From Bacteroidota bacterium (GTDB lineage Bacteria > Bacteroidota > Bacteroidia > AKYH767-A > 2013-40CM-41-45), in assembly GCA_031385005.1 (NCBI GenBank), contig JANNBB010000026.1:35669-99668 (forward strand): DNA of 64,000 nt. Reading direction: 5' to 3'. Positions 17,206 to 58,314 of the stretch are shown here, piece after piece. The position numbers and the translations under genes are program-made. A model generated the notes under the pieces. It saw nothing but the letters and a program-made list of their open reading frames with translations. It did no database searches and was not told the origin of the DNA. How positions within the stretch are numbered: position 1 is the first letter of the stretch; every line of letters starts with the position of its first letter.

Positions 17206-17213
17206 GGTAAAGG

Positions 17214-21651: not shown

Positions 21652-21917
21652 AGGCGCAAAAATCACAATTCTCAAGCGATATACAAAGGATGTTTTTTTA
21701 TTTAAAGCAATTCATTTTTAAAACCGCGCTGTTTTCTCTTTTAGATGAATGCTGATTGAATACAGAAAATGCATTGCTGGGATTTAGAGATTAATCAGAC
21801 GTTCATTTGTTTTACTCACTTAATCAGCTGTTGAAGACTGAATATTAGCTATTTAACTATGAAGTACTTGAAAGAAAATATAGATAAACAATGCATCAAA
21901 AAGAAGAATAATTTTTA

Positions 21918-28008: not shown

Positions 28009-28581
28009 TTGAAAATCTATTTTATCCAATTTATACTTCTGCTTTCTTATTCCGGTTCAATTGCCCAAAGTTCTATTTTTCAAAACAGTTTACCGGATAT
28101 TGAAAATAAATCATTTTCTTTTTCCACGCTGCAACACAAAAAAGGAACAGTTATTGTTTTTCTATTGAGTGATTGCCCGGCCACTCAGGATTATACACGT
28201 TCGTTAAATATTCTTTCTAAAACCTATCTCTCCAATAACATTTCATTTGTCGGAATATTTCCGGGGAAATTCTCTTCAGACAGCGAACTGCTTGCCTTTC
28301 AGAAAATTTATAAATTAAATTTTCCATTATTAAAAGACAGCGAAATGACTCTGGCCAAATTCTTACAGGCGAAAACAGTACCCTCCTGCTATCTTTTAAA
28401 TGATACAGGCGAGATTGTCTATCAAGGAAGAATTGATGACTGGCTTTTTGCCCTCGGACGTAAAAAGAAAAGCGCTACTCAAAAAGATTTAGAAAATGCA
28501 ATTATCAGTTTAATAAAAAATCAACCCATAAAAATACCGGTAACACAGCCCATTGGATGTATTCTTGAATATGAAGATTAA
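28009..28581 (+). CDS. Thioredoxin-fold (redoxin/TlpA-like) protein with an atypical monothiol Cys-Pro-Ala-Thr motif, secreted
   Basis: Signal peptide. VIVFLLSDCPATQ sits where the WCxxC motif normally lies. Thioredoxin-like topology. The 3' end overlaps the next gene by about 29 bp. Confidence 0.6.
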   Translation: MKIYFIQFILLLSYSGSIAQSSIFQNSLPDIENKSFSFSTLQHKKGTVIVFLLSDCPATQDYTRSLNILSKTYLSNNISFVGIFPGKFSSDSELLAFQKIYKLNFPLLKDSEMTLAKFLQAKTVPSCYLLNDTGEIVYQGRIDDWLFALGRKKKSATQKDLENAIISLIKNQPIKIPVTQPIGCILEYED

Positions 28582-29965
28582 CAGAATTTTCACTTTTCCC
28601 GCTTTTACTATTTTTATTGTCATGAGCATTTTGTTTAGCTCTTGCATAAGAGAAAAGAATTCCAATCCTACTCCTGTTTTCTCCAAAGAAATTGCACCCA
28701 TCTTTTATGAAAATTGCTCTTCCTGTCATCGTCCGGGCTCCGGAGCCCCTTTTAATCTGATCACGTACGAAGACATTGTTAAGAAGATTCATACGGTTCA
28801 ACTTTCCATTAATGAAAGACTGATGCCTCCCTGGCCGGCTGATACTTCTTACTCTCATTTTGTCGGGGAAAAGGTTTTAAGTGAAAATGAAATACATCTT
28901 ATCAATCGCTGGATTGAAGCCGGATTTCCTATCGGAGATACCAATCAAATACCACAGCCTCCGGACTTTGGATTGAATACGGAAAAGAAAAAACCGGATT
29001 TTATTATACGCATGCGTCAACCATTTCTAATCAAAGGTGATAACACAGATAATTTTATCATGCTGAAGATTCCCTATGAATTTCCATCTGATACTTTTAT
29101 ACGGACAATCGAAATTGTTCCGGGAAATAAAAAGCTCGTTCATCATATCAATGCACATCTAATTCAATATTTCGCGGGAGCCAAAAAAGACAACCAAAAA
29201 GGAGTTGCCTATGTAAATACGGAGTTGCATGATAAAATTAGTGCATATCAATTACTTTCGTTACCCAACGACGACGGCTCCTATCCATTGCTCACCCCTT
29301 CGGTCTCCAATTATCTACCGGGTGTTGAAGCGGTATTTTATCCGCCCGGAATCGGCGGACTAAAAGTAAAGAAACAAGGAGCTATCTTGCTCGATAACAT
29401 TCATTATGGGCCGAGTCCTATCGATACATCCGATCAAACAACTTTTAATTTTTATTTCAGTCCGACAGCACCCGAGAGACCACTAAGGGAATTTATTATT
29501 GGAACCAGCGGTGTTTCTCCGATTATTCCGCCCCTTGTGATACCTCCGCATACGGTTAAGAAATTTATTTCGTCGTATCGGGTACCGGAAGACATTTCTC
29601 TTTTAACCATCAATCCACATATGCATTTGCTTGGTATTTTTTTCCAGGCCTATGTTCTCCTGCCAGATGGTGATACTCTCCCATTAATCCGCATTAAAAA
29701 ATGGGATTTTCGATGGCAATATTTTTACACATTTCCGAAAATTTTAAAAATCCCTGCGGGTTCTCTTATTCAAATGGAAGGTCTTTTTGATAACACAGAG
29801 AATAATCCTTTGGTTCCCTTTCATCCACCACGTACCATTTCGGAAAGAGCAGGAAGCATGCGCACAACCGATGAAATGTTTCAATTGATATGCACATACT
29901 TGCCATATAAACCGGGCGATGAAAATATTCGATTAGAAAACAAACAAACAGAAAAAGACGACTAA
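28553..29965 (+). CDS. Lipoprotein with an N-terminal c-type heme-binding motif (CxxCH) fused to a copper type II monooxygenase-like (PHM/DBH-like) domain
   Basis: Lipobox FSSC. A heme-c motif NCSSCHRPG is followed by ...LMPPWPAD, a Planctomycete-type cytochrome c-like layout. Candidate Cu-ligand motifs are LVHHINAH (HH), NPHMHLLG (HxH) and a downstream Met (LIQMEGL). Confidence 0.5.
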   Translation: MDVFLNMKINRIFTFPAFTIFIVMSILFSSCIREKNSNPTPVFSKEIAPIFYENCSSCHRPGSGAPFNLITYEDIVKKIHTVQLSINERLMPPWPADTSYSHFVGEKVLSENEIHLINRWIEAGFPIGDTNQIPQPPDFGLNTEKKKPDFIIRMRQPFLIKGDNTDNFIMLKIPYEFPSDTFIRTIEIVPGNKKLVHHINAHLIQYFAGAKKDNQKGVAYVNTELHDKISAYQLLSLPNDDGSYPLLTPSVSNYLPGVEAVFYPPGIGGLKVKKQGAILLDNIHYGPSPIDTSDQTTFNFYFSPTAPERPLREFIIGTSGVSPIIPPLVIPPHTVKKFISSYRVPEDISLLTINPHMHLLGIFFQAYVLLPDGDTLPLIRIKKWDFRWQYFYTFPKILKIPAGSLIQMEGLFDNTENNPLVPFHPPRTISERAGSMRTTDEMFQLICTYLPYKPGDENIRLENKQTEKDD

Positions 29966-30493: not shown

Positions 30494-31606
30494 TCAATCT
30501 ACTATCTTTAACGTGAAGGTAAAGGTTGTACCCACACCAAGTGTACTCCTCACATTAATATTTTGTCCGTGAGCTTCAATAATATGTTTGACTATCGATA
30601 GACCTAACCCCGTCCCTCCCTGGTCTCTGCTCCTGCTTTTATCCACTCTGTAAAACCGTTCAAATATACGCGCCATGTGTTGAGAATCGATTCCGATACC
30701 ATTATCTGAAATTTCAACTAATATGTTTTCATCCATATCATAAAAACCGACAAAGGTATTCCCACCTTTTCGACCATACTTGATGGAATTAACAATAAGA
30801 TTTGTAATGACTTGTCTGATTCGTTCTTTATCGCCCCAAACGAAAAATGGAATATCACTATCTTCTTTGAAGGAAAGCTTTATATCCATTTCCTTTGCCC
30901 TTAGCTCAGAAGATTCAAGAACATCTTTTGCCAGTTCATGAATATCGAATGTCCGCTGATCGAGACTTAATTCTCCGCTTTCCAGTTTGGAAATCGCTTC
31001 TAAATCGTCTACAATCAGGCAGAGACGTTCTACGGATCTTGCAGCACGCTGGAGGTAATTGATGTTAACTTCAGGATCAGATACAGCACCTTCCAATAAT
31101 GTATGGATATATCCTTGAATATTGAACAAGGGTGTTTTCAATTCATGGGAAACATTGCCCAAAAATTCTTTTCTGAAATTCTCCATTCGTTTCAATTCTT
31201 CAATCTCATCTGAACGATTCTGCTGCCATTCCATAACTTCATTTCCAACATTCGTTAAGACATCTTCATTGGAAGAAACTTTTTCAACAGATTTCGCTAT
31301 TGAATCCTTGGAACTGGAAATCGACTTATAAATCAATTTTATTTTTCGATAAAGAAATACATTTAACAAATAATTGAAAACCAAAAAGGCGCTGATGAAA
31401 CAAGAGACAAAAATTAAAATATATTTTACGTTAGAGTCTGAAAAATATTTCGCTTCGAAAAAAAAATATGAAAATATTAAAACCAGAAAAGAAACAATCA
31501 AGGATGCAATTAATGCCAACCGACGTGGAGTTGCGTTTTTTCCTGGCGGTAATTGAAATTTAGAATCAGTCACGTAATATTTTTTAAAAATCAAATTTAT
31601 AGCCAA
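30494..31606 (-). CDS. Sensor histidine kinase (two TM helices, HisKA plus HATPase_c)
   Basis: H-box LGNVSHELKTPLFNIQGY. N, G1 and G2 boxes (NLIVNSIKYG, DNGIGID, GGTGLGLSIVKHI). Confidence 0.85.
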   Translation of the reverse strand: MAINLIFKKYYVTDSKFQLPPGKNATPRRLALIASLIVSFLVLIFSYFFFEAKYFSDSNVKYILIFVSCFISAFLVFNYLLNVFLYRKIKLIYKSISSSKDSIAKSVEKVSSNEDVLTNVGNEVMEWQQNRSDEIEELKRMENFRKEFLGNVSHELKTPLFNIQGYIHTLLEGAVSDPEVNINYLQRAARSVERLCLIVDDLEAISKLESGELSLDQRTFDIHELAKDVLESSELRAKEMDIKLSFKEDSDIPFFVWGDKERIRQVITNLIVNSIKYGRKGGNTFVGFYDMDENILVEISDNGIGIDSQHMARIFERFYRVDKSRSRDQGGTGLGLSIVKHIIEAHGQNINVRSTLGVGTTFTFTLKIVD

Positions 31607-32270
31607 TACCTTTTACAGTCTTGATTAAATCATCTCCAAGTTTCTCTCTTAGTTTACGGATATGTACATCAATTGTACGATCGCCGACTACCACATCGTT
31701 CCCCCATACCTTATCCAAAATCTCTTCCCGCTTAAATACTTTTCCGGGTTTTGTTGCCAACAATGATAACAATTCAAATTCCTTTCTCGGCAATTCAATT
31801 TTTTCATCACCTCTTAAGATCAGATACTGGTCCCTGTCAATTGTTAGTCCGGCAATTGTTAAAATTTTTCCGGCAGTTTCTTTAGCCGTTGCATTCTTAT
31901 CATATCTTCGAAAAAGAGCACTTATCCGGCTAATCAAAACCCGGGGTTTAATCGGCTTGGTGATGTAATCATCGGCCCCCACGTCAAATCCCGCAATCTG
32001 TGAATAGTCTTCACTTCTTGCAGTTAAAAAAGCAATTAACGTATTTTTAAAAGCAGGCAACTCTCTTAAATGACGACAGGTTTCAATACCATCCATTTCA
32101 GGCATCATAATGTCTAATATAATCAAATCCGGATTTTCCTTTTTTGCCATCTGAATAGCTTCTTTACCATTCGTAGCTTTAAATATTTGATAGTCCTCTC
32201 TTTTCAAATTATACTCCATAAATTCAAGAATATCCGGTTCATCATCGACCAACAATATTTTTTGTTTCAT
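31584..32270 (-). CDS. OmpR/PhoB-family response regulator (receiver plus winged-helix DNA-binding domain)
   Basis: Acidic pocket LLVDDEPDI and phospho-acceptor ILDIMMPEMDG. The C-terminus ends GYKFDF (trans_reg_C). The gene overlaps the kinase gene by 23 bp. Confidence 0.85.
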   Translation of the reverse strand: MKQKILLVDDEPDILEFMEYNLKREDYQIFKATNGKEAIQMAKKENPDLIILDIMMPEMDGIETCRHLRELPAFKNTLIAFLTARSEDYSQIAGFDVGADDYITKPIKPRVLISRISALFRRYDKNATAKETAGKILTIAGLTIDRDQYLILRGDEKIELPRKEFELLSLLATKPGKVFKREEILDKVWGNDVVVGDRTIDVHIRKLREKLGDDLIKTVKGIGYKFDF

Positions 32271-32349: not shown

Positions 32350-34392
32350 TTATGAAAGTTGAGAAAGTATCCTTTTAGCTTGTTCATTACTCTTATCTCT
32401 TTTCAAGACTTCCTTCAGATACATTTTAGCATCTTTCTCTCTGCCCAGAAAAAGCATTGCACCTGCTTTGTTTAAAAATGCCTGTACATTATCCGGATCC
32501 AGAGATAATGCTTTATCATACATTTTAAGTGCCGACTGAACATTCTTTTCGGCAGATAAAAGCAAAAATCCCAGACTTACATATGCGCTGCTGTATTTGG
32601 GATTTTCACGGAGAATAAACTCATAATTTCTTTTTGCTTCAGCTATCATTCCCGCATCAAATTGAGCACCGGCCAACTTATTTCTAAAATCGGTAACAAA
32701 TGGTGCAAGCTCTGTTGAATTTTCAAAATAGGAAACTGCTTTGGAATTATTACCGAGGGCTGCATAGGATTCACCGATTCGGTAAGAAGTCCAGGCATGC
32801 TCATTCATCAGGGATTTCTTGTCCAGATTTTCTAAATTGTGATTTTTACTTTCCGCATAGCTCACAACTTTTTTGTAATCATTTTTTAAAAATGCCCAAT
32901 GCACAAGCGAATGAAAATTGCGAAGAATACTGTCAACATTATTATCGACAAAATATTTCTTTGCAGAATCCAGAAATGAAGGATTATCAGAAAATTTTTC
33001 GAAATAGGAAAGAAATGCTTCTCCCTTTGAACGGTTATCAGGAGTTGAATTATTAATACAAATCAATCCGGCAAAATCTTTTATCCGTTTGACTTCCGCT
33101 TGAGTTTTAGGAATGCGAATATAATGATCGCTGGTGATAACATGTGGGATATCAGTTGCACCGCCTTTGGGCATATGACAGCTTATACAATTATCATTTG
33201 AAAGGGCTCTGACTTCCATGGATTCCTTGCAGGGAAGCTGATGAATTTTTGACTTACCGGATTGAGCATTTGCCGGCTGATGACATGAAATACATTTGGA
33301 ATTAAAATAAGAACTACGTGTAACAGTAACACTAACATGTGGATCGTGGCAGGTTATGCAAGTCAATGCATTTTGATAAGGCCGAAGAGATGATTGCTTG
33401 GCATTAATCTCCTCTGCCTTTCTTAGACTCTCTTGGAAACATTTACTCATCTTCAGTCTTTCCGCATGCGAAGCCATAATATGACTATCGTCATCGCCTT
33501 TATAGAGTGGCATGTAAACATCCATCACTTCTTTCAAATGCATGCCGGGCTTAAAGTCAAGAAACGATTTGCCCTCTTTTAAAATGGCATTACCTTGTAT
33601 ATGACACCGCTGACAAACATCCAGTTGTAAGTCGATCGGTAGTTTTGCAGGGTTGACAATCGAATAATCGATTTCCTCCTTAACATCGATTATCTTTCCC
33701 TCCTTTTTTTCGCGAATGTGCAAACTTCCCGGACCGTGACAACGTTCACAATCAATTCCATTAGCCACAAAAGAATATTTATTCTCTGACCCTTGGACCA
33801 TTTTCGGATAGGCATTGTGACAGGTCATGCATTCTAACCCTATTTTTCTTGAGAAACGACTATTATAACCGCCTTCAAATCCCGGAGGTAAATCCCACTT
33901 TTTTTTCTGAGTATAAAACGTTGCCGGCACTTGAAAAACATATCCGTTGACATTCATAAGATGCGAATTAGTATGCTGGCCGGAACCTACTATCCAATCT
34001 ACGTGCTCGGCACGTTTGAATAAAGTATCTCTACCTGAAAGACGGAACTCTAAAACAACTAAAGAATCATTTTTCCAAAAGGGATGATATTGCAGGTTTT
34101 TAAAAGTATCTGAAATAATTGCAATATCAGAAAACTTAGCAGACGACTTACTTTTCGTTGCACGGTCAAACGAAAGTCCCATTCCCGTATGAAGAAATGT
34201 TTCATATTTATCGGAATGACATTCTTTACAGGATAGAATTCCCGCATATTGAACGGTATCATTTAAGGAAGAATATTGCTTTTTGTCATCGGAATCTTCA
34301 TTATGAGAATTGCATGACATCAAATAAACAAGAAAAAAAATAAAACAGGAGCAAAACAAATTTCTTAATTGGCTCCTGTATTTAAATATCAT
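32350..34392 (-). CDS. Multiheme (7 CxxCH) c-type cytochrome lipoprotein with a C-terminal TPR repeat domain
   Basis: Lipobox LMSC. Seven heme-binding motifs: CKECH, CMTCH, CERCH, CQRCH, CITCH, CISCH and CISCH. The C-terminal ~200 aa are TPR-like (YAALGNNSKAVSYF..., AYVSLGFLLL..., AFLNKAGAMLFLG...). Confidence 0.8.
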   Translation of the reverse strand: MIFKYRSQLRNLFCSCFIFFLVYLMSCNSHNEDSDDKKQYSSLNDTVQYAGILSCKECHSDKYETFLHTGMGLSFDRATKSKSSAKFSDIAIISDTFKNLQYHPFWKNDSLVVLEFRLSGRDTLFKRAEHVDWIVGSGQHTNSHLMNVNGYVFQVPATFYTQKKKWDLPPGFEGGYNSRFSRKIGLECMTCHNAYPKMVQGSENKYSFVANGIDCERCHGPGSLHIREKKEGKIIDVKEEIDYSIVNPAKLPIDLQLDVCQRCHIQGNAILKEGKSFLDFKPGMHLKEVMDVYMPLYKGDDDSHIMASHAERLKMSKCFQESLRKAEEINAKQSSLRPYQNALTCITCHDPHVSVTVTRSSYFNSKCISCHQPANAQSGKSKIHQLPCKESMEVRALSNDNCISCHMPKGGATDIPHVITSDHYIRIPKTQAEVKRIKDFAGLICINNSTPDNRSKGEAFLSYFEKFSDNPSFLDSAKKYFVDNNVDSILRNFHSLVHWAFLKNDYKKVVSYAESKNHNLENLDKKSLMNEHAWTSYRIGESYAALGNNSKAVSYFENSTELAPFVTDFRNKLAGAQFDAGMIAEAKRNYEFILRENPKYSSAYVSLGFLLLSAEKNVQSALKMYDKALSLDPDNVQAFLNKAGAMLFLGREKDAKMYLKEVLKRDKSNEQAKRILSQLS

Positions 34393-48700: not shown

Positions 48701-49858
48701 ATGTCTGAACCAAAAAATATCTGGATGCTAACCAAATGGTATCCAAACCGGGAAGATCCTCAGTTTGGGGTTTTTATTCAGAAGCATGTTCGAGTAATTG
48801 GTCGTCATAACCGCATCAGTGTTTTATACATCCATTCCACAACTAAAATATCTTCTACTTTTGAAATAGAGGAAAAAGAAAATTCAGGAATACATGAAGT
48901 AATCGTTTACTTTAGAAGGCAGTCAACTACTTTAGGGAAAATCATTAATTTATTCAGATTCCTGATTGCTTTAAACAAGGGAATTTTACGGCTAAAAGTT
49001 AAAAATCCCCGACCGGAAATCATCCATAGTTACATACTTTTAAGAACGGGAATAGTTGCCTGGTTTTTATCCAGACGAAGAAAAATTCCATTTGTTATTT
49101 CAGAACAATGGTCCGGTTACCTAACAGGAAATTTCCTGAAGAGCTCCCTTATCCGCCAATACCTTTCTCGTAAACTTGTTAAAAAGGCATCTGCAGTGAG
49201 CAGTGTTTCTAAATTTTTATTTAACAGAATGCAGGATTGCGGATTGAAGAATTCTAATTTTCATATCATCCCGAATATAATAGAAATTCCTCCCGACAGA
49301 AAAAATTCAGAAAGTCCATTCGTGCGAGTGCTTGTTGTAGCTGATCTGGTAGACGAAATAAAAAACATTAGCGGATTGATAAGAATGATTTCCGAATTGC
49401 CGGAGGACCTTCACTTTCAACTAAAAATTATTGGGCATGGAAAAGATGAAGCAACATTAAAGAAACTTGCATCTTCATTTAATCTGTTGAATACTAAAAT
49501 TTTCTTTGAAGGATTAAAGACGAATGAAGGGGTGTATCAATATTTACTGGATAGTGATTTTCTGGTTATGAACAGTTTGTATGAAACTTTTTCGCTCATT
49601 TGTGCCGAAGCCATGAGTTGTGGAAAACCTGTATTGGCAACCCGCTGCGGAGGACCCAATGAATTCATTACTGCTGAAACCGGAATTCTGACCGAACCCG
49701 GTAACAAAAGCGAGTTAAAGAAGAATTTCCTTTTTATGTTAGCCAACCACCGATCTTTCAACCCTGTGATAATCAGAGAATACGTTCAAAACCTGTTTTC
49801 TCAGAGTAAAGTTAGCCAAGACTTTCAACGATTTTATGAATCCATTGTAAAGAAATAG
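48701..49858 (+). CDS. Glycosyltransferase family 4 protein
   Basis: GT-B fold with the C-terminal EX7E-like region (FSLICAEAMSCGKPVLATRCGGPNEFI). Confidence 0.75.
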   Translation: MSEPKNIWMLTKWYPNREDPQFGVFIQKHVRVIGRHNRISVLYIHSTTKISSTFEIEEKENSGIHEVIVYFRRQSTTLGKIINLFRFLIALNKGILRLKVKNPRPEIIHSYILLRTGIVAWFLSRRRKIPFVISEQWSGYLTGNFLKSSLIRQYLSRKLVKKASAVSSVSKFLFNRMQDCGLKNSNFHIIPNIIEIPPDRKNSESPFVRVLVVADLVDEIKNISGLIRMISELPEDLHFQLKIIGHGKDEATLKKLASSFNLLNTKIFFEGLKTNEGVYQYLLDSDFLVMNSLYETFSLICAEAMSCGKPVLATRCGGPNEFITAETGILTEPGNKSELKKNFLFMLANHRSFNPVIIREYVQNLFSQSKVSQDFQRFYESIVKK

Positions 49859-50057: not shown

Positions 50058-52046
50058 ATGAAAAAAAGTTTACTATTAAGCCTGGCCGTTGCCCTTGGAA
50101 TTGGCGCAATCGCTCAGGTAAATCAAAGTCTGCCTGTCGGATTTCGCAAGGCAAATTTACCTGCTGCACTTAAAAACTACAGCGTAAGGGTACCTTACCG
50201 TTCTGAAGTAATTGACAACCAGGTTCCGCTTTCAACACTTGCTATTCCTCATGCAAATGCAAGAACAGCACAACCTGTAGCAAATGAAACAGTAATTGGT
50301 TGTACTTTTTATGATTTACAAACAAACAATTCAATCAGCAATCGTTTGGTTGTAAACACGGATGGTACAATTGCAGCTGCATGGACATTTTCACCGGATG
50401 CCATTCAAACGACAACTCCTGTATTCCCTAACCGTGGATCAGGTTACAATTACTATGATGGTGCAAACTGGAGCAATCCGGGTTGTCCAATGACTCGTGA
50501 AGAAGGAAGCGTTCGTACCGGTTTTACAAACATCGTAAACACGGCTAGCGGAAATGAAATGTTAATTGCTCACTCAGCCGTTACAGGTCAGGCATATAAC
50601 AGAATTTCTGTTGCCAGAAGAGCTACTAAAGGTACCGGTGCCTGGACAATTTCATATCCATGGGGATCTACATCTACTGATACTTGGCCAAAAGCTACTA
50701 GTGCCGGAGATAACGTTTACGTTGTTTTCCAAGGTCAAGGCGCCAGCGGTTCAACTACTGTAACTCCGGCTCCGGTTTTAGGTCAAAGCGGTCCGATTTT
50801 CTACTCTCAATCTACTGACGGAGGTGTTACTTTCTCTCCAAAGTGGGTAAATCCTCTAATCGATTCTACACAATACAAAGGTTTTGGCGGCGATAGTTAT
50901 TGCATCGATGCTAAAGACAGCATTGTTGTTCTCGGTTTTGGTGATACATATACCGATGTTGGTTTTTTAAAGTCAACAGACTATGGTCAAACATGGACGA
51001 AGACAATCATCCAAACACATCCTATTCCTTTTTATACTGACGATTCTTTAACAGATGAAAATCATGATGGAACAATCGATACATTATTTACAAATGGTGG
51101 TGACATCAAAGTGTTAATTGACAATAACGGTCTTGTTCATGCCTGGTTCTCTGCTTTACGTTACTACAATGATTCAGCTAGCGACGGTTTCTACAATCCA
51201 ATGTGGGGAACAGATGGTCTTGAATACTGGAATGAGAACATGCCTTCAAATGGTTATGTTGAAATTACGGCTTCTCAGGATTATAATGGAAACAACATAC
51301 TTGATGTTCCTTCCGATACATTCCCGGGAAATAGTCCATGTGATGTAATTTTGCCTTGGGGTGAGTATAGCGGTGGTATTACAATTATGCCATCTGCCGG
51401 AATTGATGCCTCAGGTAAAATTTATATGACCTATGCTACTATCAATGAAAGTGCTGATACTACAGATTTCCACGAAGCACACCGTCATATCTACATGATG
51501 ACTCTTGCACCACCTTACGATCCTGCAACTTGGACATATCCATACAACATTATCCCTTCACAAGCAGATGGTGGATTAGGAGAATATCAGGAAGGATCTT
51601 TCGCTTGTACAGGACGTTTAGTTGATAATACTTATGCTTACGTATTATATCAGCGTGACGATGCTCCGGGTCATGGTTTAGCTCGTGCAACTTCTTGCGA
51701 TCTTCACTTTAATCTTGGTAACTCAAGCGACATTTTACTTACAAAAGTTGAAACAGCTGTTGTAGGCGTAAAAAATGCTCCACAAAACGATTTATTTGTT
51801 AGCCAAAACTACCCTAACCCATCTGTTGGAATGACACACATCAACATTGGCTTAAAGAAATCAGCTGATATTCGTTTTGAAGTTTATGATATCATTGGAA
51901 AAGTTGTTTACTCAGAGACTCGTAAACAGTCTGTTGCAGGAAACCATACCATTAACCTGAACACAGCTTCTTTCGAGCCGGGAATTTATACCTACTCAGT
52001 AATTGCCGGTGGACAAAAATCTACACGTCAAATGATTGTTCAATAA
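50058..52046 (+). CDS. Secreted protein with a T9SS C-terminal sorting domain (function unknown)
   Basis: Signal peptide MKKSLLLSLAVALGIGAIAQ. The last ~85 aa form a T9SS type A CTD (NYPNPSVGMTHINIGL...GIYTYSVIAGGQKSTRQMIVQ). Confidence 0.75.
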   Translation: MKKSLLLSLAVALGIGAIAQVNQSLPVGFRKANLPAALKNYSVRVPYRSEVIDNQVPLSTLAIPHANARTAQPVANETVIGCTFYDLQTNNSISNRLVVNTDGTIAAAWTFSPDAIQTTTPVFPNRGSGYNYYDGANWSNPGCPMTREEGSVRTGFTNIVNTASGNEMLIAHSAVTGQAYNRISVARRATKGTGAWTISYPWGSTSTDTWPKATSAGDNVYVVFQGQGASGSTTVTPAPVLGQSGPIFYSQSTDGGVTFSPKWVNPLIDSTQYKGFGGDSYCIDAKDSIVVLGFGDTYTDVGFLKSTDYGQTWTKTIIQTHPIPFYTDDSLTDENHDGTIDTLFTNGGDIKVLIDNNGLVHAWFSALRYYNDSASDGFYNPMWGTDGLEYWNENMPSNGYVEITASQDYNGNNILDVPSDTFPGNSPCDVILPWGEYSGGITIMPSAGIDASGKIYMTYATINESADTTDFHEAHRHIYMMTLAPPYDPATWTYPYNIIPSQADGGLGEYQEGSFACTGRLVDNTYAYVLYQRDDAPGHGLARATSCDLHFNLGNSSDILLTKVETAVVGVKNAPQNDLFVSQNYPNPSVGMTHINIGLKKSADIRFEVYDIIGKVVYSETRKQSVAGNHTINLNTASFEPGIYTYSVIAGGQKSTRQMIVQ

Positions 52047-52148: not shown

Positions 52149-52865
52149 TTAGATTAAATCGAAAAAATCTTTGACACCTGGAGTGCGATGGACTAAAAAT
52201 CCTTCTGCATATTTAACACCCATAGGTCTGCCCATTTCAATAGCTCTTGCTTCGAGAAAATGAATAAAGTCCTCTCCGGAAATCGGAGTTTCCGGCTCTG
52301 AAGATTCTGCATTATAAAACTGAGAAGAAAATGCCAGGATGGTTTTCATTTTTCTATCCCAAACAGCAGTTACATCAATAGCCAAATCAGGTAAAATATG
52401 CCTGTCCTGAATATAATGATATAAGGCCTTTACCTTCCATTTCTCTTGTGGAACGTTGGCTTCTTTCGTTTCAACTTTCAATAAACCGGCAAGAAAAACA
52501 GCATTGGCAACAAGCATAGAAGCCCTTCCGTGATCAGGATGTCTATCGTGCTTGGCATTTGCTAAAACAATTTCAGGGCGGTATTTTCGAATTGCAGCAA
52601 CAATGGCAAGTTGATGAGCTTTATCATTCAAAAAAAAGCCATCATCCATATTCAGGTTTTCCCTAACGTGTATTCCCAATATTTCAGAGGCGGCTGCAGC
52701 TTCTTTAGATCGTAGTTCAGCGCTTCCTCTTGTTCCTAACTCCCCTTTTGTCAGGTCGATAATACCACATTTATATCCTTTATCAATATGTATCAATAAT
52801 GTTCCTGAAGCGCCTAATTCGACATCATCGGGATGAGCACCGAAGGCCAGAATATCTAATTTCAT
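52149..52865 (-). CDS. bshB1: Bacillithiol biosynthesis deacetylase BshB1 (PIG-L/LmbE family)
   Basis: N-terminus ILAFGAHPDDVELGASGTL, the HPDH motif, and the C-terminal AEGF, with close overall resemblance to BshB1. Confidence 0.8.
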   Translation of the reverse strand: MKLDILAFGAHPDDVELGASGTLLIHIDKGYKCGIIDLTKGELGTRGSAELRSKEAAAASEILGIHVRENLNMDDGFFLNDKAHQLAIVAAIRKYRPEIVLANAKHDRHPDHGRASMLVANAVFLAGLLKVETKEANVPQEKWKVKALYHYIQDRHILPDLAIDVTAVWDRKMKTILAFSSQFYNAESSEPETPISGEDFIHFLEARAIEMGRPMGVKYAEGFLVHRTPGVKDFFDLI

Positions 52866-52975: not shown

Positions 52976-53629
52976 ATGCAACAAATTTTATTTCTGATCG
53001 ATAAAGAAATTAAACTTGAATGGAAGCAAAAGTATGCATTTAACGGCATTTTATTGTATGTAGGTGCGACCGTCTTTATTTGTTATTTATCTTTCCGTGA
53101 GATAGTAGATGTACCGGTATGGAATGCACTTTTTTGGATCATTCAGTTATTCGCGGGAGTTAATGCAATTGCAAAAAGCTTTCTGCAGGAATCAAGAGGA
53201 AGAGCATTGTATTATTATATAATTGCAGACCCCAGAGATGTCATTATTTCTAAAATCATTTATAATTTTATGTTGATGATGCTTTTATCTGTCATTAACT
53301 TTCTGTTTTATTCGGTATTAATCGGAAATCCGGTAGAAAATATTCCCATGTTTTTCTTCACCCTTGTCTTAGGAAGCATGGGATTGTCCTCTGTTTTATC
53401 GATGGTTTCCGCTATTGCATCCAAAGCAGGTCATAGCGCTGCACTGATGCCAATTTTGAGCTTCCCAATACTACTTCCGCTATTGATGACAACAATCAGA
53501 TTATCAAAAAACGCGATTGATGGTCTTGACTGGGCTGTTAATCAGCAATTTGTTATAATTCTGCTTTCCTTAAACATACTTATTATAGCTATGGGATATC
53601 TGCTCTTTCCTTATCTTTGGAAAGAATAG
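52976..53629 (+). CDS. ccmB: Heme exporter protein CcmB-like (cytochrome c maturation System I)
   Basis: 217-aa polytopic membrane protein with six predicted TM helices, sitting directly upstream of ccmC. Confidence 0.65.
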   Translation: MQQILFLIDKEIKLEWKQKYAFNGILLYVGATVFICYLSFREIVDVPVWNALFWIIQLFAGVNAIAKSFLQESRGRALYYYIIADPRDVIISKIIYNFMLMMLLSVINFLFYSVLIGNPVENIPMFFFTLVLGSMGLSSVLSMVSAIASKAGHSAALMPILSFPILLPLLMTTIRLSKNAIDGLDWAVNQQFVIILLSLNILIIAMGYLLFPYLWKE

Positions 53630-53697
53630 AAATGATGTTACACTTAACATGATATTTATAAAAAGAAATTATCGTAAAAAAACAATTCCCGACTTAA

Positions 53698-54378
53698 ATG
53701 CACGATAACAAAACAGATTCAATTTTAAACATCGCTTGGTGGAAATGGCTTTGCATTGTATTGTTATTATCCACCTTTTTTTGGGGGTTTCTTGTTCCTG
53801 TCCCTCGTTTACCGATTTTACATGAAAGTATCCGAAACCTATTTTTTCATGTAACGATATGGTTTGCCATGATTATTCTAATGACCTGTTCTTTGGTTTA
53901 CGGAATAAAATATTTACGCACCAACAATATTGACTTCGATATTAAGGCAGAAAAATATACGGTAACCGGAATTTTTTTAGGGATTATTGGATTAATAACC
54001 GGTAGCATATGGGCGAAGAATACTTGGGGTGCCTGGTGGATAAACGACGCCAAACTCAATGGAGCAGCTGCAGCCATGCTCGTATACCTGGCCTATATGG
54101 TGTTAAGAGGTTCAATCGATGATGAAACAAAGAGAGCACGAATTTCATCTGTTTATGGAATTTTTTCTTTTGTAATGATGCTTGTTTTTATCATGATTCT
54201 CCCTCGTCTTACAGTATCCTTGCATCCCGGTAACGGCGGGAATCCGGGATTTAATGCATATGACCTAGACAATACAATGAGAAAATTATTTTACCCGGCT
54301 ATAATTGCCCAGACTCTATTAGGTGTTTGGATTACAGAAATACTTGTACGTATACAACGACTAACCAATAAAGAATAA
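53698..54378 (+). CDS. ccmC: Heme exporter protein CcmC
   Basis: Trp-rich WWD-type region WAKNTWGAWWINDAKLNGAAA, plus conserved His residues. Confidence 0.8.
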   Translation: MHDNKTDSILNIAWWKWLCIVLLLSTFFWGFLVPVPRLPILHESIRNLFFHVTIWFAMIILMTCSLVYGIKYLRTNNIDFDIKAEKYTVTGIFLGIIGLITGSIWAKNTWGAWWINDAKLNGAAAAMLVYLAYMVLRGSIDDETKRARISSVYGIFSFVMMLVFIMILPRLTVSLHPGNGGNPGFNAYDLDNTMRKLFYPAIIAQTLLGVWITEILVRIQRLTNKE

Positions 54379-54383
54379 CAACT

Positions 54384-54617
54384 ATGATCAGGAAATATTT
54401 TTTAACTGTTTTTTCATTTTGTATTTTTTCAATTGTTAATCCATTACAAATTATTGCACAGGAAAGTGATATTGAAATGGCTGATGTCATGCGAGGCAAT
54501 GGAAAAATTTATGTAGTCGTTGCAGTGGTTGGAGTTATTCTTTCCTGCTTGTTAGTTTTCCTGATGATTATCGATAAAAAGGTCAGAAAACTTGAAAAAA
54601 ACCACAAGAAAAACTAG
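54384..54617 (+). CDS. ccmD: CcmD family protein (Bacteroidota alternative type)
   Basis: 77 aa. The motif MADVMRGNGKIYVVVAVVGVIL, then a single TM helix and a basic tail. Located between ccmC and ccmE. Confidence 0.6.
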   Translation: MIRKYFLTVFSFCIFSIVNPLQIIAQESDIEMADVMRGNGKIYVVVAVVGVILSCLLVFLMIIDKKVRKLEKNHKKN

Positions 54618-54650
54618 TTCTTGGGATTCCTGAATTGCCGAATTAAATCG

Positions 54651-54658
54651 TAAATTTG
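54651..54658 (+). promoter_or_regulatory. Bacteroidota -7 promoter element (possible internal promoter)
   Basis: TAAATTTG lies 21 nt upstream of the ccmE ATG. Confidence 0.3.
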
Positions 54659-54678
54659 CAATAATTAACCTATTCAGG

Positions 54679-55083
54679 ATGAAAAAGTCACATGTCATCG
54701 CATTAGTCATTATTGCATTAGCAATTGGTGCAATAATTAGCACACTGGCGGATTCCAGCACCTATGCCACATTTAAAACAGCGGAAGAAAATCCTAAGAA
54801 ATCATTCCACGTTGTTGGGAAACTAAACAAAAACATGCCTCAGGAATACAATCCTCAGGTGGATGCAGATGTTTTTTCCTTTTTTCTAATCGACAATGAA
54901 GGAAAAGAAAAAAAGGTCTTATTAAATAAAGCACGGCCTCAGGATTTTGAAAAATCAGAACAGATTGTAGTCATCGGAAAGATGCAAGATGACAATTTTG
55001 TTGCTTCTGATGTTTTAATGAAATGTCCTTCTAAATACAACAATCCGAAGGAAGACATGAAGAAGATGAGTTCAAGTGAATAG
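54679..55083 (+). CDS. ccmE: Cytochrome c maturation heme chaperone CcmE, CxxxY variant
   Basis: N-terminal TM anchor and an OB-fold core. The heme-binding site reads KCPSKY (CxxxY) in place of the canonical HxxxY. Confidence 0.7.
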   Translation: MKKSHVIALVIIALAIGAIISTLADSSTYATFKTAEENPKKSFHVVGKLNKNMPQEYNPQVDADVFSFFLIDNEGKEKKVLLNKARPQDFEKSEQIVVIGKMQDDNFVASDVLMKCPSKYNNPKEDMKKMSSSE

Positions 55084-55105
55084 TGTTTTTTAAAGTAATT
55101 TCAGA

Positions 55106-57541
55106 ATGGATATTCAATATATAGGTGAGCAACTGATTTGGGGAAAAATCGGGAACACCTTAGTTATGCTCGCTTTTACTTCTGCACTTTTAACAGCAGC
55201 ATGTTATTTTCTTTTTATCCGTACCAATGAGAATTCCTGGAAGTCGATTGCCCGAAAAGCATTTGCCGTTCAAACGTTAAGTATTTTAGGAATTTTCTCC
55301 TTGCTCTTTTACCTGATATTAAATCACCGCTTTGAGTATTATTATGTTTGGGAACACAGTGATACCAAAATGCCGCTTCGTTATATCCTATCCTGTTTTT
55401 GGGAAGGTCAGGAAGGTAGTTTTCTATTATGGATGTTTTGGCATTGCATTATCAGTTGGGTAATCATTGCAACAGCTAAATCTTGGGAGGCAGGCGTTAT
55501 GTTTGTTGTCGCATTGGCACAAGTATTTCTCGCTTCAATGATATTAGGCATTGTTATTTTTGACTACAAAATTGGTAGCAATCCATTTGTATTATTACGT
55601 GATCATCCTGACTTCGCCAATCTACCATTCATTAAGATGCCCGACTACCTAAGCAAGATAAATGATGGACGTGGATTAAATCCGCTTTTGCAAAATTACT
55701 GGATGACCATACATCCACCCACTCTCTTTCTTGGTTTTGGATTGACCATCGTTCCTTTTGCATTTGCCATTGCTTCGCTTATAAATAAAAAAGTTGATCA
55801 ATGGGTAAAACCAGCTCTTCCCTGGGCATTTGCTTGTGTGATGATTTTAGGTACAGGCATATTAATGGGAGCTGCCTGGGCATATGAATCCCTTAGCTTC
55901 GGTGGATTCTGGGCATGGGATCCGGTTGAGAATGCTTCATTGGTTCCCTGGATGACAATGACTGCAGGAGCGCATGTTATGTTGATTTATGCACATCGCA
56001 AACGTGCATTAGTATCGGCTTATTTACTTGCCTTAGCTACTTTTATTTTAATTCTTTACTCTACATTCTTAACACGAAGTGGAATTCTGGGTAATTCATC
56101 TGTGCATGCATTCACAGATTTAGGAATGTCAGGCCACCTTGTATTATTCATGGTGTTCTTTATTTTACTCGCATTTGGTTTAATGTTTTACAACAGAAAA
56201 TCGCTTTCAGAAAAAACAGAAGAAGAACACTTTTCTTCCCGTGAATTCTGGATGTTCATCGGTGTTTTAGTACTGGTAATTGGAAGTATTCAAATAACTT
56301 TTACCACCTCAACACCGGTTATAAATAAATTGTTTGGTACTAACCTTGCACCTCCCACAGACCCTATCGGTCATTACAATCAATGGCAGGTGCCTGTGGC
56401 CATTTTGCTCTGCCTGCTAATAGGTATTGGACAGTATTTCAAATACATTAAAACAGATTGGATGGCATTTTGGAAAAAACTTATGCCATCGGTAATTGTT
56501 TCATTACTTATAACCGGACTATCAGCATTCGTACTCGGAAAATATCCAGTTCATTATTACACCCTCCTTTTTGCTTCTGTCTTTGCTGTTGTAGCCAATA
56601 CTGATTATTTATTCAGAAGTCTGAAAGGTCGATTCTCAAATTCAGGCCCTTCTATCGCTCACATCGGTATCGGACTCATTCTTTGCGGAGCGCTAATTTC
56701 CAATTCAAAGAAAGAAATTATTTCCCGAAACATGAAGAGCATTGACTTGGGAAAGGATATTCCGAACAAAGAGAATATCCTGATGGAATTAAAGACTGAT
56801 ACGCTTCCAATGGGAGAATATTATGTAACATATACAGGAAACGAACAAAAAGGTGTTAATGTATTTTACAATATCAGCTATTTTAAATTGGACCGATCAA
56901 ATGGAGTTATGCAAAAAGAATTTGATTTAAAGCCATTCGTTCAATTGAACAAACGAATGGGCAATGTGGCTGAACCGGCAACGAAACATTTTCTTACACG
57001 CGATATTTACACGCATATTACCTATGCTGAATTAGAAGATAAAAATGAAGAACAACTGACAGCTGAATATGCTGCTCCTAAAGAACAGGATGTTGCTGTT
57101 GGCGACACTTTTGTTACCAGTAATAGCTTTGTAATCCTACAGCAATTAAATAAAGATGTTGAACGCGACGGACTTCATCTGAATGATTCTGATCTGGTAG
57201 TTGGCGCCAAACTAATCGTAGAAGATATCAATAAAAAATTATATACGGCGGAACCACTTTTTATTATCCGGAATTTCTCCATGATGACTCGTGAAGATGA
57301 AATTCCCGAGTTGGGATTAAAATTTTCTTTCAACAAGATCGATCCGAAAACAGGGAAAATTCAATTGAGCATTTTCGAAAAAAAGTCGAACAAAAAGAAT
57401 TTCATTATCATGAAAGCAATCATTTTCCCGGGAATTAATATACTTTGGATGGGGTGTTTTATGATGATCATCGGCTCCTTGATTGCGCTTCGTAAGAGGT
57501 TAAAAAGCAAAACAGCGGAAACACCTATTGAAAAAACATGA
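55106..57541 (+). CDS. ccmF: Cytochrome c-type biogenesis protein CcmF (heme lyase), long form
   Basis: WWD domain WAYESLSFGGFWAWDPVENASLVPW. Many TM helices. 811 aa with an extended C-terminal periplasmic region. Confidence 0.85.
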   Translation: MDIQYIGEQLIWGKIGNTLVMLAFTSALLTAACYFLFIRTNENSWKSIARKAFAVQTLSILGIFSLLFYLILNHRFEYYYVWEHSDTKMPLRYILSCFWEGQEGSFLLWMFWHCIISWVIIATAKSWEAGVMFVVALAQVFLASMILGIVIFDYKIGSNPFVLLRDHPDFANLPFIKMPDYLSKINDGRGLNPLLQNYWMTIHPPTLFLGFGLTIVPFAFAIASLINKKVDQWVKPALPWAFACVMILGTGILMGAAWAYESLSFGGFWAWDPVENASLVPWMTMTAGAHVMLIYAHRKRALVSAYLLALATFILILYSTFLTRSGILGNSSVHAFTDLGMSGHLVLFMVFFILLAFGLMFYNRKSLSEKTEEEHFSSREFWMFIGVLVLVIGSIQITFTTSTPVINKLFGTNLAPPTDPIGHYNQWQVPVAILLCLLIGIGQYFKYIKTDWMAFWKKLMPSVIVSLLITGLSAFVLGKYPVHYYTLLFASVFAVVANTDYLFRSLKGRFSNSGPSIAHIGIGLILCGALISNSKKEIISRNMKSIDLGKDIPNKENILMELKTDTLPMGEYYVTYTGNEQKGVNVFYNISYFKLDRSNGVMQKEFDLKPFVQLNKRMGNVAEPATKHFLTRDIYTHITYAELEDKNEEQLTAEYAAPKEQDVAVGDTFVTSNSFVILQQLNKDVERDGLHLNDSDLVVGAKLIVEDINKKLYTAEPLFIIRNFSMMTREDEIPELGLKFSFNKIDPKTGKIQLSIFEKKSNKKNFIIMKAIIFPGINILWMGCFMMIIGSLIALRKRLKSKTAETPIEKT

Positions 57542-58314
57542 AAATAGTTTTATTGGGATCCGGAAATGTTGCCAGTCACTTAGGGCCTATTCTACAACGT
57601 AAAGGTCATAAGATCATTCAGCTATTTAGTCATACCCGAAAAAATGGCTTTCCGCTTTCTAAAAAACTAAAATGCAGTTTCACTACAACTCCTGCTCAAA
57701 TTAATCCTTCTGCAGATTTATACATCGTTGCATTAAAGGACGACATCATTGCATCTTTCGTTAAAAAGCTAAACTTTATTCCGAAACTTATCGTGCATAC
57801 GTCAGGTTCTATAGGATTGGAAGTTTTTCCTAAAAAGTTTAAATCATCCGGTGTACTATATCCCTTGCAGACTTTATCGAAAAACACGGAAGTAAAACCG
57901 GATAACATACCTTATTGCATTGAAGGAAAGAGCGGCAAGTCATTAAACAGCATTCGTAAACTTGCTAATTCTATTTCTAGTCAGGTTTATGTATTCAATT
58001 CAGATCAACGAAAAGTCATTCATCTGGCTGCAGTTTTTGCGAATAATTTTTCAAATTATCTTTTTATTCTTGCTGATAAAATTTTGAAGAAAAAAAATAT
58101 CCCCTTCAAGATACTTGCACCACTCATTACCGAAACAGCTCAAAAAGTATTAAATGAAAAGCCGGAAAAAATACAAACTGGCCCTGCCAAGCGTGGAGAT
58201 AAAATTGTTATGGATAAACATACTGATTTACTGAAGAGCAATAAAGAAGCACAGAAAATTTACAAGATACTTTCTAAAAGCATTGCTAAATATTACAAAG
58301 TACCTGTTCAATAA
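57538..58314 (+). CDS. Rossmann-fold DUF2520 domain-containing protein (predicted NAD(P)-binding)
   Basis: N-terminal motif VLLGSGNVASHL, which is GxGxxA-like. Its ATG overlaps the ccmF stop. Confidence 0.6.
   Translation: MKIVLLGSGNVASHLGPILQRKGHKIIQLFSHTRKNGFPLSKKLKCSFTTTPAQINPSADLYIVALKDDIIASFVKKLNFIPKLIVHTSGSIGLEVFPKKFKSSGVLYPLQTLSKNTEVKPDNIPYCIEGKSGKSLNSIRKLANSISSQVYVFNSDQRKVIHLAAVFANNFSNYLFILADKILKKKNIPFKILAPLITETAQKVLNEKPEKIQTGPAKRGDKIVMDKHTDLLKSNKEAQKIYKILSKSIAKYYKVPVQ

What the first reader, a model, noticed from the sequence alone, without database searches (positions are those of the whole stretch)
52976..57541. System-I-type cytochrome c maturation cluster (ccmBCDEF) lacking ccmA/G/H in cis, with a CxxxY CcmE
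Five co-directional genes encode CcmB-like, CcmC (WWD), an alt-type CcmD, CcmE and a long CcmF. No CcmA ATPase, CcmG thioredoxin or CcmH is encoded in the cluster; the upstream neighbour is bshB1 on the opposite strand. The CcmE heme-attachment site reads KCPSKY, i.e. CxxxY in place of the canonical HxxxY. That variant is known from Desulfovibrio and archaeal CcmE and binds heme through Cys rather than His. Many Bacteroidota use System II (CcsBA) instead, so a System I variant here, with this CcmE chemistry, is worth documenting. The 811-aa CcmF may also have absorbed CcmH-like functions in its C-terminal extension.
Basis: partly seen in the sequence, partly recalled or inferred. Interest (0 to 1): 0.5.

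Follow-up and report, generated by a model that had tools for sequence, protein, structure and literature searches.

The report
Cys-type cytochrome c maturation operon
This is an intact ccmBCDEF operon of the already described "System I*" kind, whose heme chaperone CcmE carries heme on a cysteine instead of a histidine; it is the standard arrangement in hundreds of Bacteroidota species, so it is real but ordinary.

Summary
Five co-directional ORFs at exactly the stated coordinates are CcmB, CcmC, CcmD_alt, CcmE and an 811-aa CcmF. A profile alignment puts CcmE Cys116/Tyr120 (KCPSKY) on E. coli His130/Tyr134. No ccmA, ccmG, ccmH, ccdA or ccsBA lies anywhere in the 64-kb window.

CPSKY is the majority motif of the published "System I*" variant (Desulfovibrio, archaea). 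At least 587 species-representative genomes, essentially all Bacteroidota, carry the same CcmE. Among the best 80 related loci, 80/80 have KCPSKY, gene order is conserved, and none has a CcmA-like ATPase or a CcmH near the ccm genes.

All catalytic residues are conserved, so the system looks functional. Whether a CcmA exists elsewhere in the genome could not be tested.

Verdict: a new member of a known kind, with low to moderate interest.

The parts
52976..53629 (+). ccmB: 217-aa polytopic membrane protein, the ABC-type permease partner of CcmC
   Evidence: Pfam PF03379 E 5.9e-12, 45.9 bits against a cut-off of 24.9. Its only PDB sequence hit is E. coli CcmB 7F02_B, and that hit is weak (E 0.88). 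It has 7107 relatives; the best 120 listed all have a single CcmB domain, nearly all 216-230 aa, and several are named 'heme exporter protein CcmB' by NCBI or JGI.
53698..54378 (+). ccmC: 226-aa WWD-domain heme-handling protein that loads heme onto CcmE
   Evidence: PF01578 E 7.2e-14 and TIGR01191 1.1e-17. It matches E. coli CcmC 7F02_C at E 1.5e-6, with H51 aligned on H60 and H176 on H184. Both His residues are conserved in relatives.
54010..54057 (+). CcmC WWD motif WAKNTWGAWWINDAKL (residues 105-120); Asn116 replaces E. coli Trp125
   Evidence: Alignment to 7F02_C. The position is N, S, A or another non-Trp residue in 31 of the 32 relatives recovered by the pattern search, so it is a family trait.
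54384..54617 (+). ccmD (alternative type): 77-aa small membrane protein
   Evidence: Pfam PF20077 CcmD_alt E 3.3e-19. It starts 5 bp after the ccmC stop and holds the same position between ccmC and ccmE in most related loci.
54679..55083 (+). ccmE: 134-aa membrane-anchored OB-fold heme chaperone, Cys type
55021..55038 (+). CcmE heme-attachment motif K115-C116-P-S-K-Y120
   Evidence: hhalign places C116 on E. coli H130 and Y120 on Y134. LMKCPSKYN is invariant in alignment A1. CPSKY occurs in 119 of 120 top homologues and KCPSKY in 80 of 80 loci. C116 is the only Cys in the protein.
55106..57541 (+). ccmF: 811-aa heme lyase (cytochrome c synthase) with WWD domain and four His ligands
   Evidence: TIGR00353 4.4e-66, PF01578 and PF16327. 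It matches 6ZMQ at E 1.2e-37 over residues 14-450. H203, H290, H334 and H519 are each present in 59 of 59 family members. Family length is about 800-890 aa.
55898..55933 (+). CcmF WWD motif FGGFWAWDPVEN (residues 265-276)
   Evidence: The identical motif is found in 66 of 67 family CcmF ORFs.
56768..57430 (+). Enlarged periplasmic all-beta ('beta cap') domain of CcmF (residues ~555-775), followed by the last TM helix (~777-803)
57538..58314 (+). DUF2520 Rossmann-type protein; its start overlaps the ccmF stop by 4 bp, so it is probably co-transcribed. Membership in the system is not shown.
   Evidence: PF10728 3.9e-36 and PF03807 2e-5. It follows ccmF directly in 46 of 54 evaluable loci.
32350..34392 (-). 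Candidate substrate: 680-aa protein with seven CxxCH motifs and a C-terminal TPR region
   Evidence: Motif scan. Pfam MtrC/MtrF-like, cytochrome c7 and c3 families plus TPR. Weak NCBIfam hits to the GSU2203 and DmsE decaheme families.

Best explanation
This is a functional operon for the Cys-CcmE variant of cytochrome c maturation System I (published name: System I*), in the form typical of Bacteroidota. Proposed mechanism follows. CcmC binds heme b in its periplasmic WWD site, ligated by His51 and His176. The membrane-anchored OB-fold chaperone CcmE attaches a heme vinyl group covalently to Cys116, in place of the canonical His, with Tyr120 as the axial ligand. CcmB, the small CcmD_alt protein and an ABC ATPase encoded elsewhere release holo-CcmE. 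Holo-CcmE docks on CcmF, whose WWD domain and periplasmic His203/His334 hold the heme while a transmembrane b-heme (His290/His519) reduces it. CcmF then acts without CcmH and ligates heme to the CxxCH motifs of Sec-exported apocytochromes, such as the heptaheme protein 20 kb upstream. The long CcmF carries an enlarged periplasmic beta-cap domain, not a CcmH module. Shown here: gene identities, motif positions, residue conservation, folds, synteny, and the absence of ccmA/G/H in cis. Inferred from published work on E. coli, D. desulfuricans and M. acetivorans: covalent Cys-heme binding, the order of steps, dispensability of CcmH/CcmG, and the existence of a CcmA in trans.
Against: No CcmA was found in the 64-kb window or within 10 kb of ccmE in 80 related loci (1.14 Mb). 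In the known mechanism, ATP hydrolysis by CcmA is needed to release holo-CcmE. All NCBIfam equivalog scores are far below their cut-offs, and pairwise similarity of CcmB and CcmE to solved proteins is weak (E 0.88 and 0.5). The CcmC WWD motif lacks the last Trp of the E. coli motif. Nothing was tested experimentally for any Bacteroidota member, and no paper on it was found.
Confidence: 0.85

Rival explanations
1. This is a truly minimal five-protein system. Bacteroidota have no dedicated CcmA at all, and holo-CcmE (Cys-linked) is released from CcmBCD without ATP hydrolysis or by borrowing the ATPase of another ABC transporter.
For: No CcmA-like ATPase lies next to ccmB in any of 80 loci or in the window. 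CcmB relatives are never fused to an ATPase domain among the best 120 listed. The CcmC WWD motif and CcmD are both of variant types, which could go with altered release chemistry.
Against: CcmB is an ABC-type permease conserved across hundreds of species and has no known role without an ATPase partner. ccm genes are demonstrably dispersed in this phylum: ccmF is unlinked in L018, L048, L053 and L074, and ccmBCD is separated from ccmEF in L034, L035 and L052, so an unlinked ccmA is the simpler reading. The tested Cys-type systems (D. desulfuricans, M. acetivorans) include CcmA. Only 64 kb of the genome was visible.
Confidence: 0.1
2. The cluster is a dedicated NrfE-type lyase system serving one special cytochrome (as NrfEFG serves the CxxCK heme of NrfA), rather than the general maturation system.
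For: CcmF scores nearly as well against the NrfE subfamily model TIGR03145 (3.9e-61) as against the general CcmF/NrfE model TIGR00353 (4.4e-66).
Against: Both scores are far below their cut-offs, so they do not discriminate. No nrfA, nrfF or nrfG was found in the window. The lyase sits in one operon with ccmBCDE, the general heme-delivery module. No second ccmF was seen in any locus.
Confidence: 0.04
3. CcmF's long C-terminus has absorbed a CcmH-like thiol-redox or apocytochrome-handling function.
For: CcmF is about 150-160 aa longer than the E. coli and Thermus enzymes and no ccmH is present in cis. Two His (H628, H637) in the extra domain are about 95% conserved, so the domain is under constraint and could contact the substrate.
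Against: The defining CxxC is absent here and in 0 of 59 family members. The only Cys in the region lies in the last TM helix. The predicted fold is all-beta and matches the periplasmic domain of CcmF and CcsBA, not a CcmH helical bundle or a thioredoxin. System I* is already known to work without CcmH.
Confidence: 0.05

Closest known systems
System I* (variant Ccm system with Cys-CcmE) of Desulfovibrio desulfuricans / D. vulgaris (Allen et al. 2006 and Goddard et al. 2010, as summarised in PMC3601427; CcmE structure PDB 2KCT)
   Different: The tested Desulfovibrio Ccm operon includes ccmA (the order ccmEFABCD is recalled from memory, not checked here); here the order is ccmBCDEF and ccmA is never linked. 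CcmD is the Pfam 'alt' type. CcmF has an enlarged periplasmic beta domain. The last Trp of the CcmC WWD motif is replaced. Sequence similarity to D. vulgaris CcmE is low (phmmer E 0.5). The 2011 review does not list Bacteroidetes among the host phyla.
Archaeal streamlined Ccm system (Methanosarcina acetivorans CcmABCEF, PMC9084895)
   Same: CxxxY CcmE, no CcmH or CcmI, and ccm genes that need not all be linked.
   Different: Archaea lack CcmD and often split CcmF into two genes, and ccmA is linked to ccmBC. Here a CcmD_alt is present, CcmF is one long protein and ccmA is unlinked.
Canonical System I of E. coli (CcmABCDEFGH; structures 7F02, 8CE8, 1SR3)
   Same: Same protein families and the same catalytic residues: two His in CcmC, WWD plus four His in CcmF, and Tyr134 of CcmE (equivalent to Tyr120 here). 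CcmE is a membrane-anchored OB fold.
   Different: His130 of CcmE is Cys here. ccmA, ccmG and ccmH are absent from the operon. CcmD is a different Pfam family. CcmC Trp125 is Asn here. CcmF is about 160 aa longer.
System II CcsBA of Bacteroides thetaiotaomicron (PMC13645880, PMC10663686)
   Different: System II has no CcmE chaperone and no CcmB/C/D. One fused protein both exports and attaches heme. No CcsB/ResB or CcsA is present in this window.

Membership tests
System I (Ccm) cytochrome c maturation | CcmC with a WWD domain and two periplasmic His heme ligands | tested here: met
   PF01578 and TIGR01191 hits. Alignment to E. coli CcmC places H51 on H60 and H176 on H184, and the WWD motif is present with one Trp replaced by Asn. 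Both His are conserved in relatives.
System I (Ccm) cytochrome c maturation | CcmE: membrane-anchored OB-fold chaperone with the heme-attachment residue four positions before a conserved Tyr, just after the barrel | tested here: met
System I (Ccm) cytochrome c maturation | CcmF with a WWD domain, two periplasmic His and two transmembrane His (b-heme) | tested here: met
   TIGR00353 4.4e-66, 6ZMQ 1.2e-37, H203/H290/H334/H519 in 59/59 members, and FGGFWAWDPVEN nearly invariant.
System I (Ccm) cytochrome c maturation | CcmAB ABC module (CcmA ATPase plus CcmB permease) | tested here: inconclusive
   CcmB is present (PF03379). No CcmA lies in the 64-kb window or in 1.14 Mb of related loci. The rest of the genome could not be searched.
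System I (Ccm) cytochrome c maturation | CcmD small membrane protein | tested here: met
   PF20077 CcmD_alt E 3.3e-19, located between ccmC and ccmE. The function of this alternative family has not been tested to my knowledge.
System I (Ccm) cytochrome c maturation | CcmG thioredoxin and CcmH (LRCxxC) thiol-redox module | tested here: not met
   Neither was found in the window by motif or Pfam scan, nor next to the cluster in 80 loci. The redoxin-like ORF at 28009-28581 has a single Cys (DCPAT), not CxxC. Their absence from the whole genome could not be tested.
System I* (Cys-CcmE variant) | CcmE with CxxxY (typically CPSKY) in place of HxxxY | tested here: met
   KCPSKY at residues 115-120, aligned on HDENY of E. 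coli. The motif is invariant in the family. CPSKY is reported as the majority motif of System I* (PMC3601427).
System I* (Cys-CcmE variant) | Covalent heme binding through the Cys and holocytochrome formation without CcmH | not testable with these tools
   This needs heme staining or mass spectrometry of CcmE, and heterologous expression. It is shown only for D. desulfuricans and M. acetivorans.
   CxxC is absent in this CcmF and in 0 of 59 relatives. The region is an all-beta domain matching CcmF and CcsBA periplasmic domains.
NrfEFG dedicated lyase | NrfE accompanied by NrfF/NrfG and an NrfA with a CxxCK heme site | tested here: not met
   No Nrf partner genes were found in the window. The TIGR03145 score of 207.6 is far below its cut-off of 927.3.
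System II (CcsBA / ResBC) | CcsB/ResB plus CcsA, with no CcmE | tested here: not met
   CcmE is present. The only ResB signal is a 34-residue sub-threshold match around the TM His of CcmF. No CcsB or CcsA ORF lies in the window.

The most novel reading that the evidence does not exclude
Bacteroidota run a five-protein System I* (CcmB, CcmC, CcmD_alt, Cys-CcmE, long CcmF) with no dedicated CcmA, CcmG or CcmH anywhere in the genome. Release of thioether-linked holo-CcmE would then be ATP-independent or driven by a borrowed ATPase. The variant CcmC WWD motif (Trp to Asn/Ser/Ala), the alternative CcmD and the enlarged, His-bearing beta-cap of CcmF would be the compensating adaptations. A further possibility is that the DUF2520 NAD(P)-Rossmann protein, whose start overlaps the ccmF stop and which follows ccmF in 46 of 54 loci, is the still-unknown cytoplasmic reductant of the CcmF b-heme.
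Probability: 0.1. Interest if true: 0.6.

Novelty: new member of a known kind. Interest (0 to 1): 0.22.

Why it matters
The reviews I could read place Cys-type CcmE (System I*) in archaea, delta-proteobacteria, Chloroflexi and Firmicutes, and Bacteroides is a model for System II. This window and its relatives show that the Cys-CcmE system, with the exact CPSKY motif, is the common arrangement across many non-Bacteroides orders of Bacteroidota (at least 587 species representatives). That gives a large, diverse and partly culturable set of organisms in which to study how a normally stable thioether bond to CcmE is formed and broken. It also corrects the assumption that the phylum relies on System II. 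The consistent absence of a linked ccmA, the variant CcmC WWD motif and the enlarged CcmF beta-cap are concrete features to test. For genome annotation the cluster is already named correctly by Pfam, NCBI and JGI, so the practical gain is small.

Tried and rejected

3. I asked whether ccmA hides in the ~1.5-kb gap between bshB1 and ccmB seen in some relatives. The gap holds an MBL/beta-CASP-type hydrolase or a glutathione-peroxidase-like gene.

4. A ~590-aa fused ABC exporter sits just upstream of ccmE in L026, L034, L035 and L052. I considered it a CcmA substitute and rejected it as a general explanation, because it occurs in one lineage only and has the wrong architecture.

5. My first WWD regular expressions were too strict and returned nothing. 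I corrected them.

6. The sigma-70 promoter scan did not exceed shuffled controls (32 found against 33.4 expected). The terminator-like sites (12 found against 6.4 expected) were not examined further, so the scan gave no usable operon boundaries.

7. Literature searches for Bacteroidetes, Flavobacteria or Cytophaga together with Ccm terms found nothing relevant. Allen 2006 and Goddard 2010 are not held in the library, so I cite them only through reviews.

8. I considered the multiheme cytochrome's C-terminal TPR region as a CcmI-like module, but it scores below the Pfam cut-off (29.2 against 42 bits) and is probably generic TPR similarity.

9. I considered His44 of CcmE, which is invariant in the close family, as a hidden canonical His. 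It lies in the first barrel strand (strand 43-49 in the model), not in the C-terminal tail, and the canonical position is occupied by Cys.
Full report
**Observation.** They are separated by 68, 5, 61 and 22 bp. The next gene (DUF2520, 57538-58314) overlaps the ccmF stop by 4 bp. Pfam assigns them to CcmB (E 5.9e-12), the cytochrome c assembly/WWD family (7.2e-14), CcmD_alt (3.3e-19), CcmE (2.1e-11), and Cytochrom_C_asm plus CcmF_C (2e-25, 4.6e-10), all above the gathering cut-offs. NCBIfam agrees on family (ccmC 1.1e-17; CcmF/NrfE 4.4e-66), but every score is far below its equivalog cut-off, so these are divergent members. CcmF matches the solved T. thermophilus CcmF (6ZMQ) at 1.2e-37. CcmC matches E. 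coli CcmC (7F02_C) at 1.5e-6. The divergently transcribed upstream gene is bshB1 (TIGR04001, 1.7e-84, above cut-off).

**The CcmE heme site.** CcmE has one Cys (C116) in the sequence LMKCPSKYN.
- I verified an E. coli CcmE sequence as identical to PDB 8CE8 chain E. A profile of 25 family members aligned against it puts VLMKCPSKY on VLAKHDENY, so C116 corresponds to His130 and Y120 to Tyr134 (hhalign E 1.4e-4).
- phmmer independently aligns KCP on the KCP of the Cys-type D. vulgaris CcmE 2KCT, though weakly (E 0.5).
- An AlphaFold model (pLDDT 79) shows an N-terminal TM helix and a beta barrel whose last strand ends at residue 115, so the Cys opens the lower-confidence C-terminal tail.

His44 is invariant in the close family, but it lies in the first barrel strand.

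**What is absent.** A motif scan of all six frames and Pfam scans of essentially every ORF of at least 110 aa in the 64-kb window found no CcmA-type ABC ATPase; the only ABC protein is a two-domain ABC-F at 19714-21675. They also found no CxxC thioredoxin of the CcmG/ResA type, no CcmH, no CcdA/DsbD and no ResB/CcsA. The redoxin-like ORF at 28009-28581 has a single Cys (DCPAT).

**How common it is.** CcmE has 1508 detectable relatives, and 119 of the top 120 carry CPSKY. NCBI names several of them [quoted passage not shown]. The best 80 loci are essentially all Bacteroidota MAGs (Flavobacteriales, Crocinitomicaceae, Salibacteraceae, Chitinophagales, Sphingobacteriales, Bacteroidales, Lentimicrobiaceae). 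A few carry record names from other phyla but have the same gene order.

Across these 1.14 Mb:

| Feature | Count |
|---|---|
| KCPSKY motif in CcmE | 80/80 |
| ccmF directly after ccmE | 57/62 |
| ccmC just upstream of ccmE | 57/69 |
| DUF2520 directly after ccmF | 46/54 |
| bshB1 divergent upstream of ccmB | 25/41 |

Only seven ORFs in all 80 loci contain an ABC nucleotide-binding domain, and none is a CcmA-sized protein near ccmB. Where relatives have extra DNA between bshB1 and ccmB, it encodes a hydrolase or a peroxidase. In some genomes ccmF (L018, L048, L053, L074) or ccmBCD (L034, L035, L052) is unlinked from ccmE. ccm genes are therefore dispersed in this phylum, and an unlinked ccmA is plausible.

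**Functional residues.** In CcmC, both heme-ligating His are conserved. The last Trp of the E. coli WWD motif (W125) is Asn here and is not Trp in 31 of the 32 relatives the pattern recovered. In CcmF, the WWD motif FGGFWAWDPVEN and the four His (H203, H290, H334, H519) are invariant in 59 of 59 family members. Intact reading frames, tight spacing and this conservation argue for an active system. Likely substrates sit in the same window, notably a 680-aa protein with seven CxxCH motifs.

**Comparison with what is known.** The review PMC3601427 describes System I*. Its CcmE has Cys in place of His, as in archaea, Desulfovibrio and other bacteria. Most variant CcmEs carry CPSKY (25 of 36 bacterial genomes). 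The Desulfovibrio operon makes holocytochrome c in E. coli without CcmH or CcmG, and its Cys-CcmE binds heme covalently. PMC9084895 shows that CcmABCEF is necessary and sufficient in Methanosarcina. The present cluster meets the defining sequence feature of System I*. It differs in five ways: host phylum (not listed in that review), gene order, an unlinked or missing ccmA, an alternative CcmD, and the CcmC and CcmF details above. I found no paper describing this system in Bacteroidota. Public annotation already names the genes correctly.

**Verdict.** The best explanation is a functional System I* operon typical of Bacteroidota, with CcmA most likely encoded elsewhere (confidence 0.85). About 0.1 probability remains that the phylum lacks a dedicated CcmA altogether. 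That reading would be interesting, and it is directly testable on complete genomes and by heterologous expression.

Noticed in passing
window 32350-34392 (-): A 680-aa protein with seven CxxCH motifs (MtrC/MtrF-like and cytochrome c7/c3 Pfam hits; weak GSU2203 and DmsE decaheme hits) fused to a C-terminal TPR region. It is followed on the same strand by a two-component response regulator (31584-32270) and a histidine kinase (30494-31606). It is a likely substrate of the ccm system, and the architecture is unusual.
   Followed up: partly
window 57538-58314 (+); L001-L080: A DUF2520 protein with an NAD(P)-Rossmann N-terminus starts 4 bp before the ccmF stop (ATGA overlap) and follows ccmF directly in 46 of 54 related loci. 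The reductant of the CcmF b-heme is unknown (PMC10663686), so a functional link is conceivable. However, kdsC, ubiA and maf downstream are also syntenic, so this may be plain conserved gene order.
   Followed up: partly
window 56987-57016 (CcmF residues 628-637): Two His (H628 in 56/59, H637 in 57/59) lie in a strongly conserved motif EPATKHFLxxDIYTHITYAEL inside the enlarged periplasmic beta domain of CcmF. No known role is assigned to them.
   Followed up: partly
window 54010-54057 (CcmC residues 105-120): The CcmC WWD motif reads WGAWWIND. The Trp corresponding to E. coli W125 is Asn here and N, S, A or another non-Trp residue in 31 of 32 relatives. I did not check whether this co-varies with Cys-type CcmE in other phyla.
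   Followed up: partly
window 28009-28581 (+) and 28553-29965 (+): A redoxin/AhpC-TSA-like protein with a single active-site Cys (DCPAT) overlaps the start of a 470-aa ORF. That ORF has one CSSCH heme motif and several His-rich motifs (HHINAH, HMHLLG) but no Pfam or NCBIfam match. It may be an uncharacterised monoheme cytochrome-domain enzyme.
   Followed up: no
L026 2384-4174, L034 7276-9093, L035 5290-7068, L052 8068-9906: In one Sphingobacteriales-like lineage, a ~590-610-aa fused ABC exporter (permease plus ATPase) sits directly upstream of ccmE, between ccmBCD and ccmEF. Its relation to heme or thiol export is unknown.
   Followed up: no
window 52149-52865 (-); 25 of 41 evaluable loci: bshB1 (bacillithiol biosynthesis deacetylase) is divergently transcribed from ccmB across much of the phylum. 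A BshA-like GT4 glycosyltransferase hit (TIGR03999, sub-threshold) lies at 48701-49858. I did not examine a possible link between low-molecular-weight thiol supply and a Ccm system lacking CcmG/H.
   Followed up: no
window 15619-18911 (-), 25157-26482 (+), 50058-52046 (+): Several proteins carry T9SS C-terminal sorting domains (Por_Secre_tail), and there is a DUF1800/DUF1501 pair. These are consistent with a Bacteroidota origin. The window's CcmB is 100% identical to the one on MAG GCA_031418095.1 contig JANOWW010000052.1, whose ccm cluster has the same gene order and gene lengths.
   Followed up: partly
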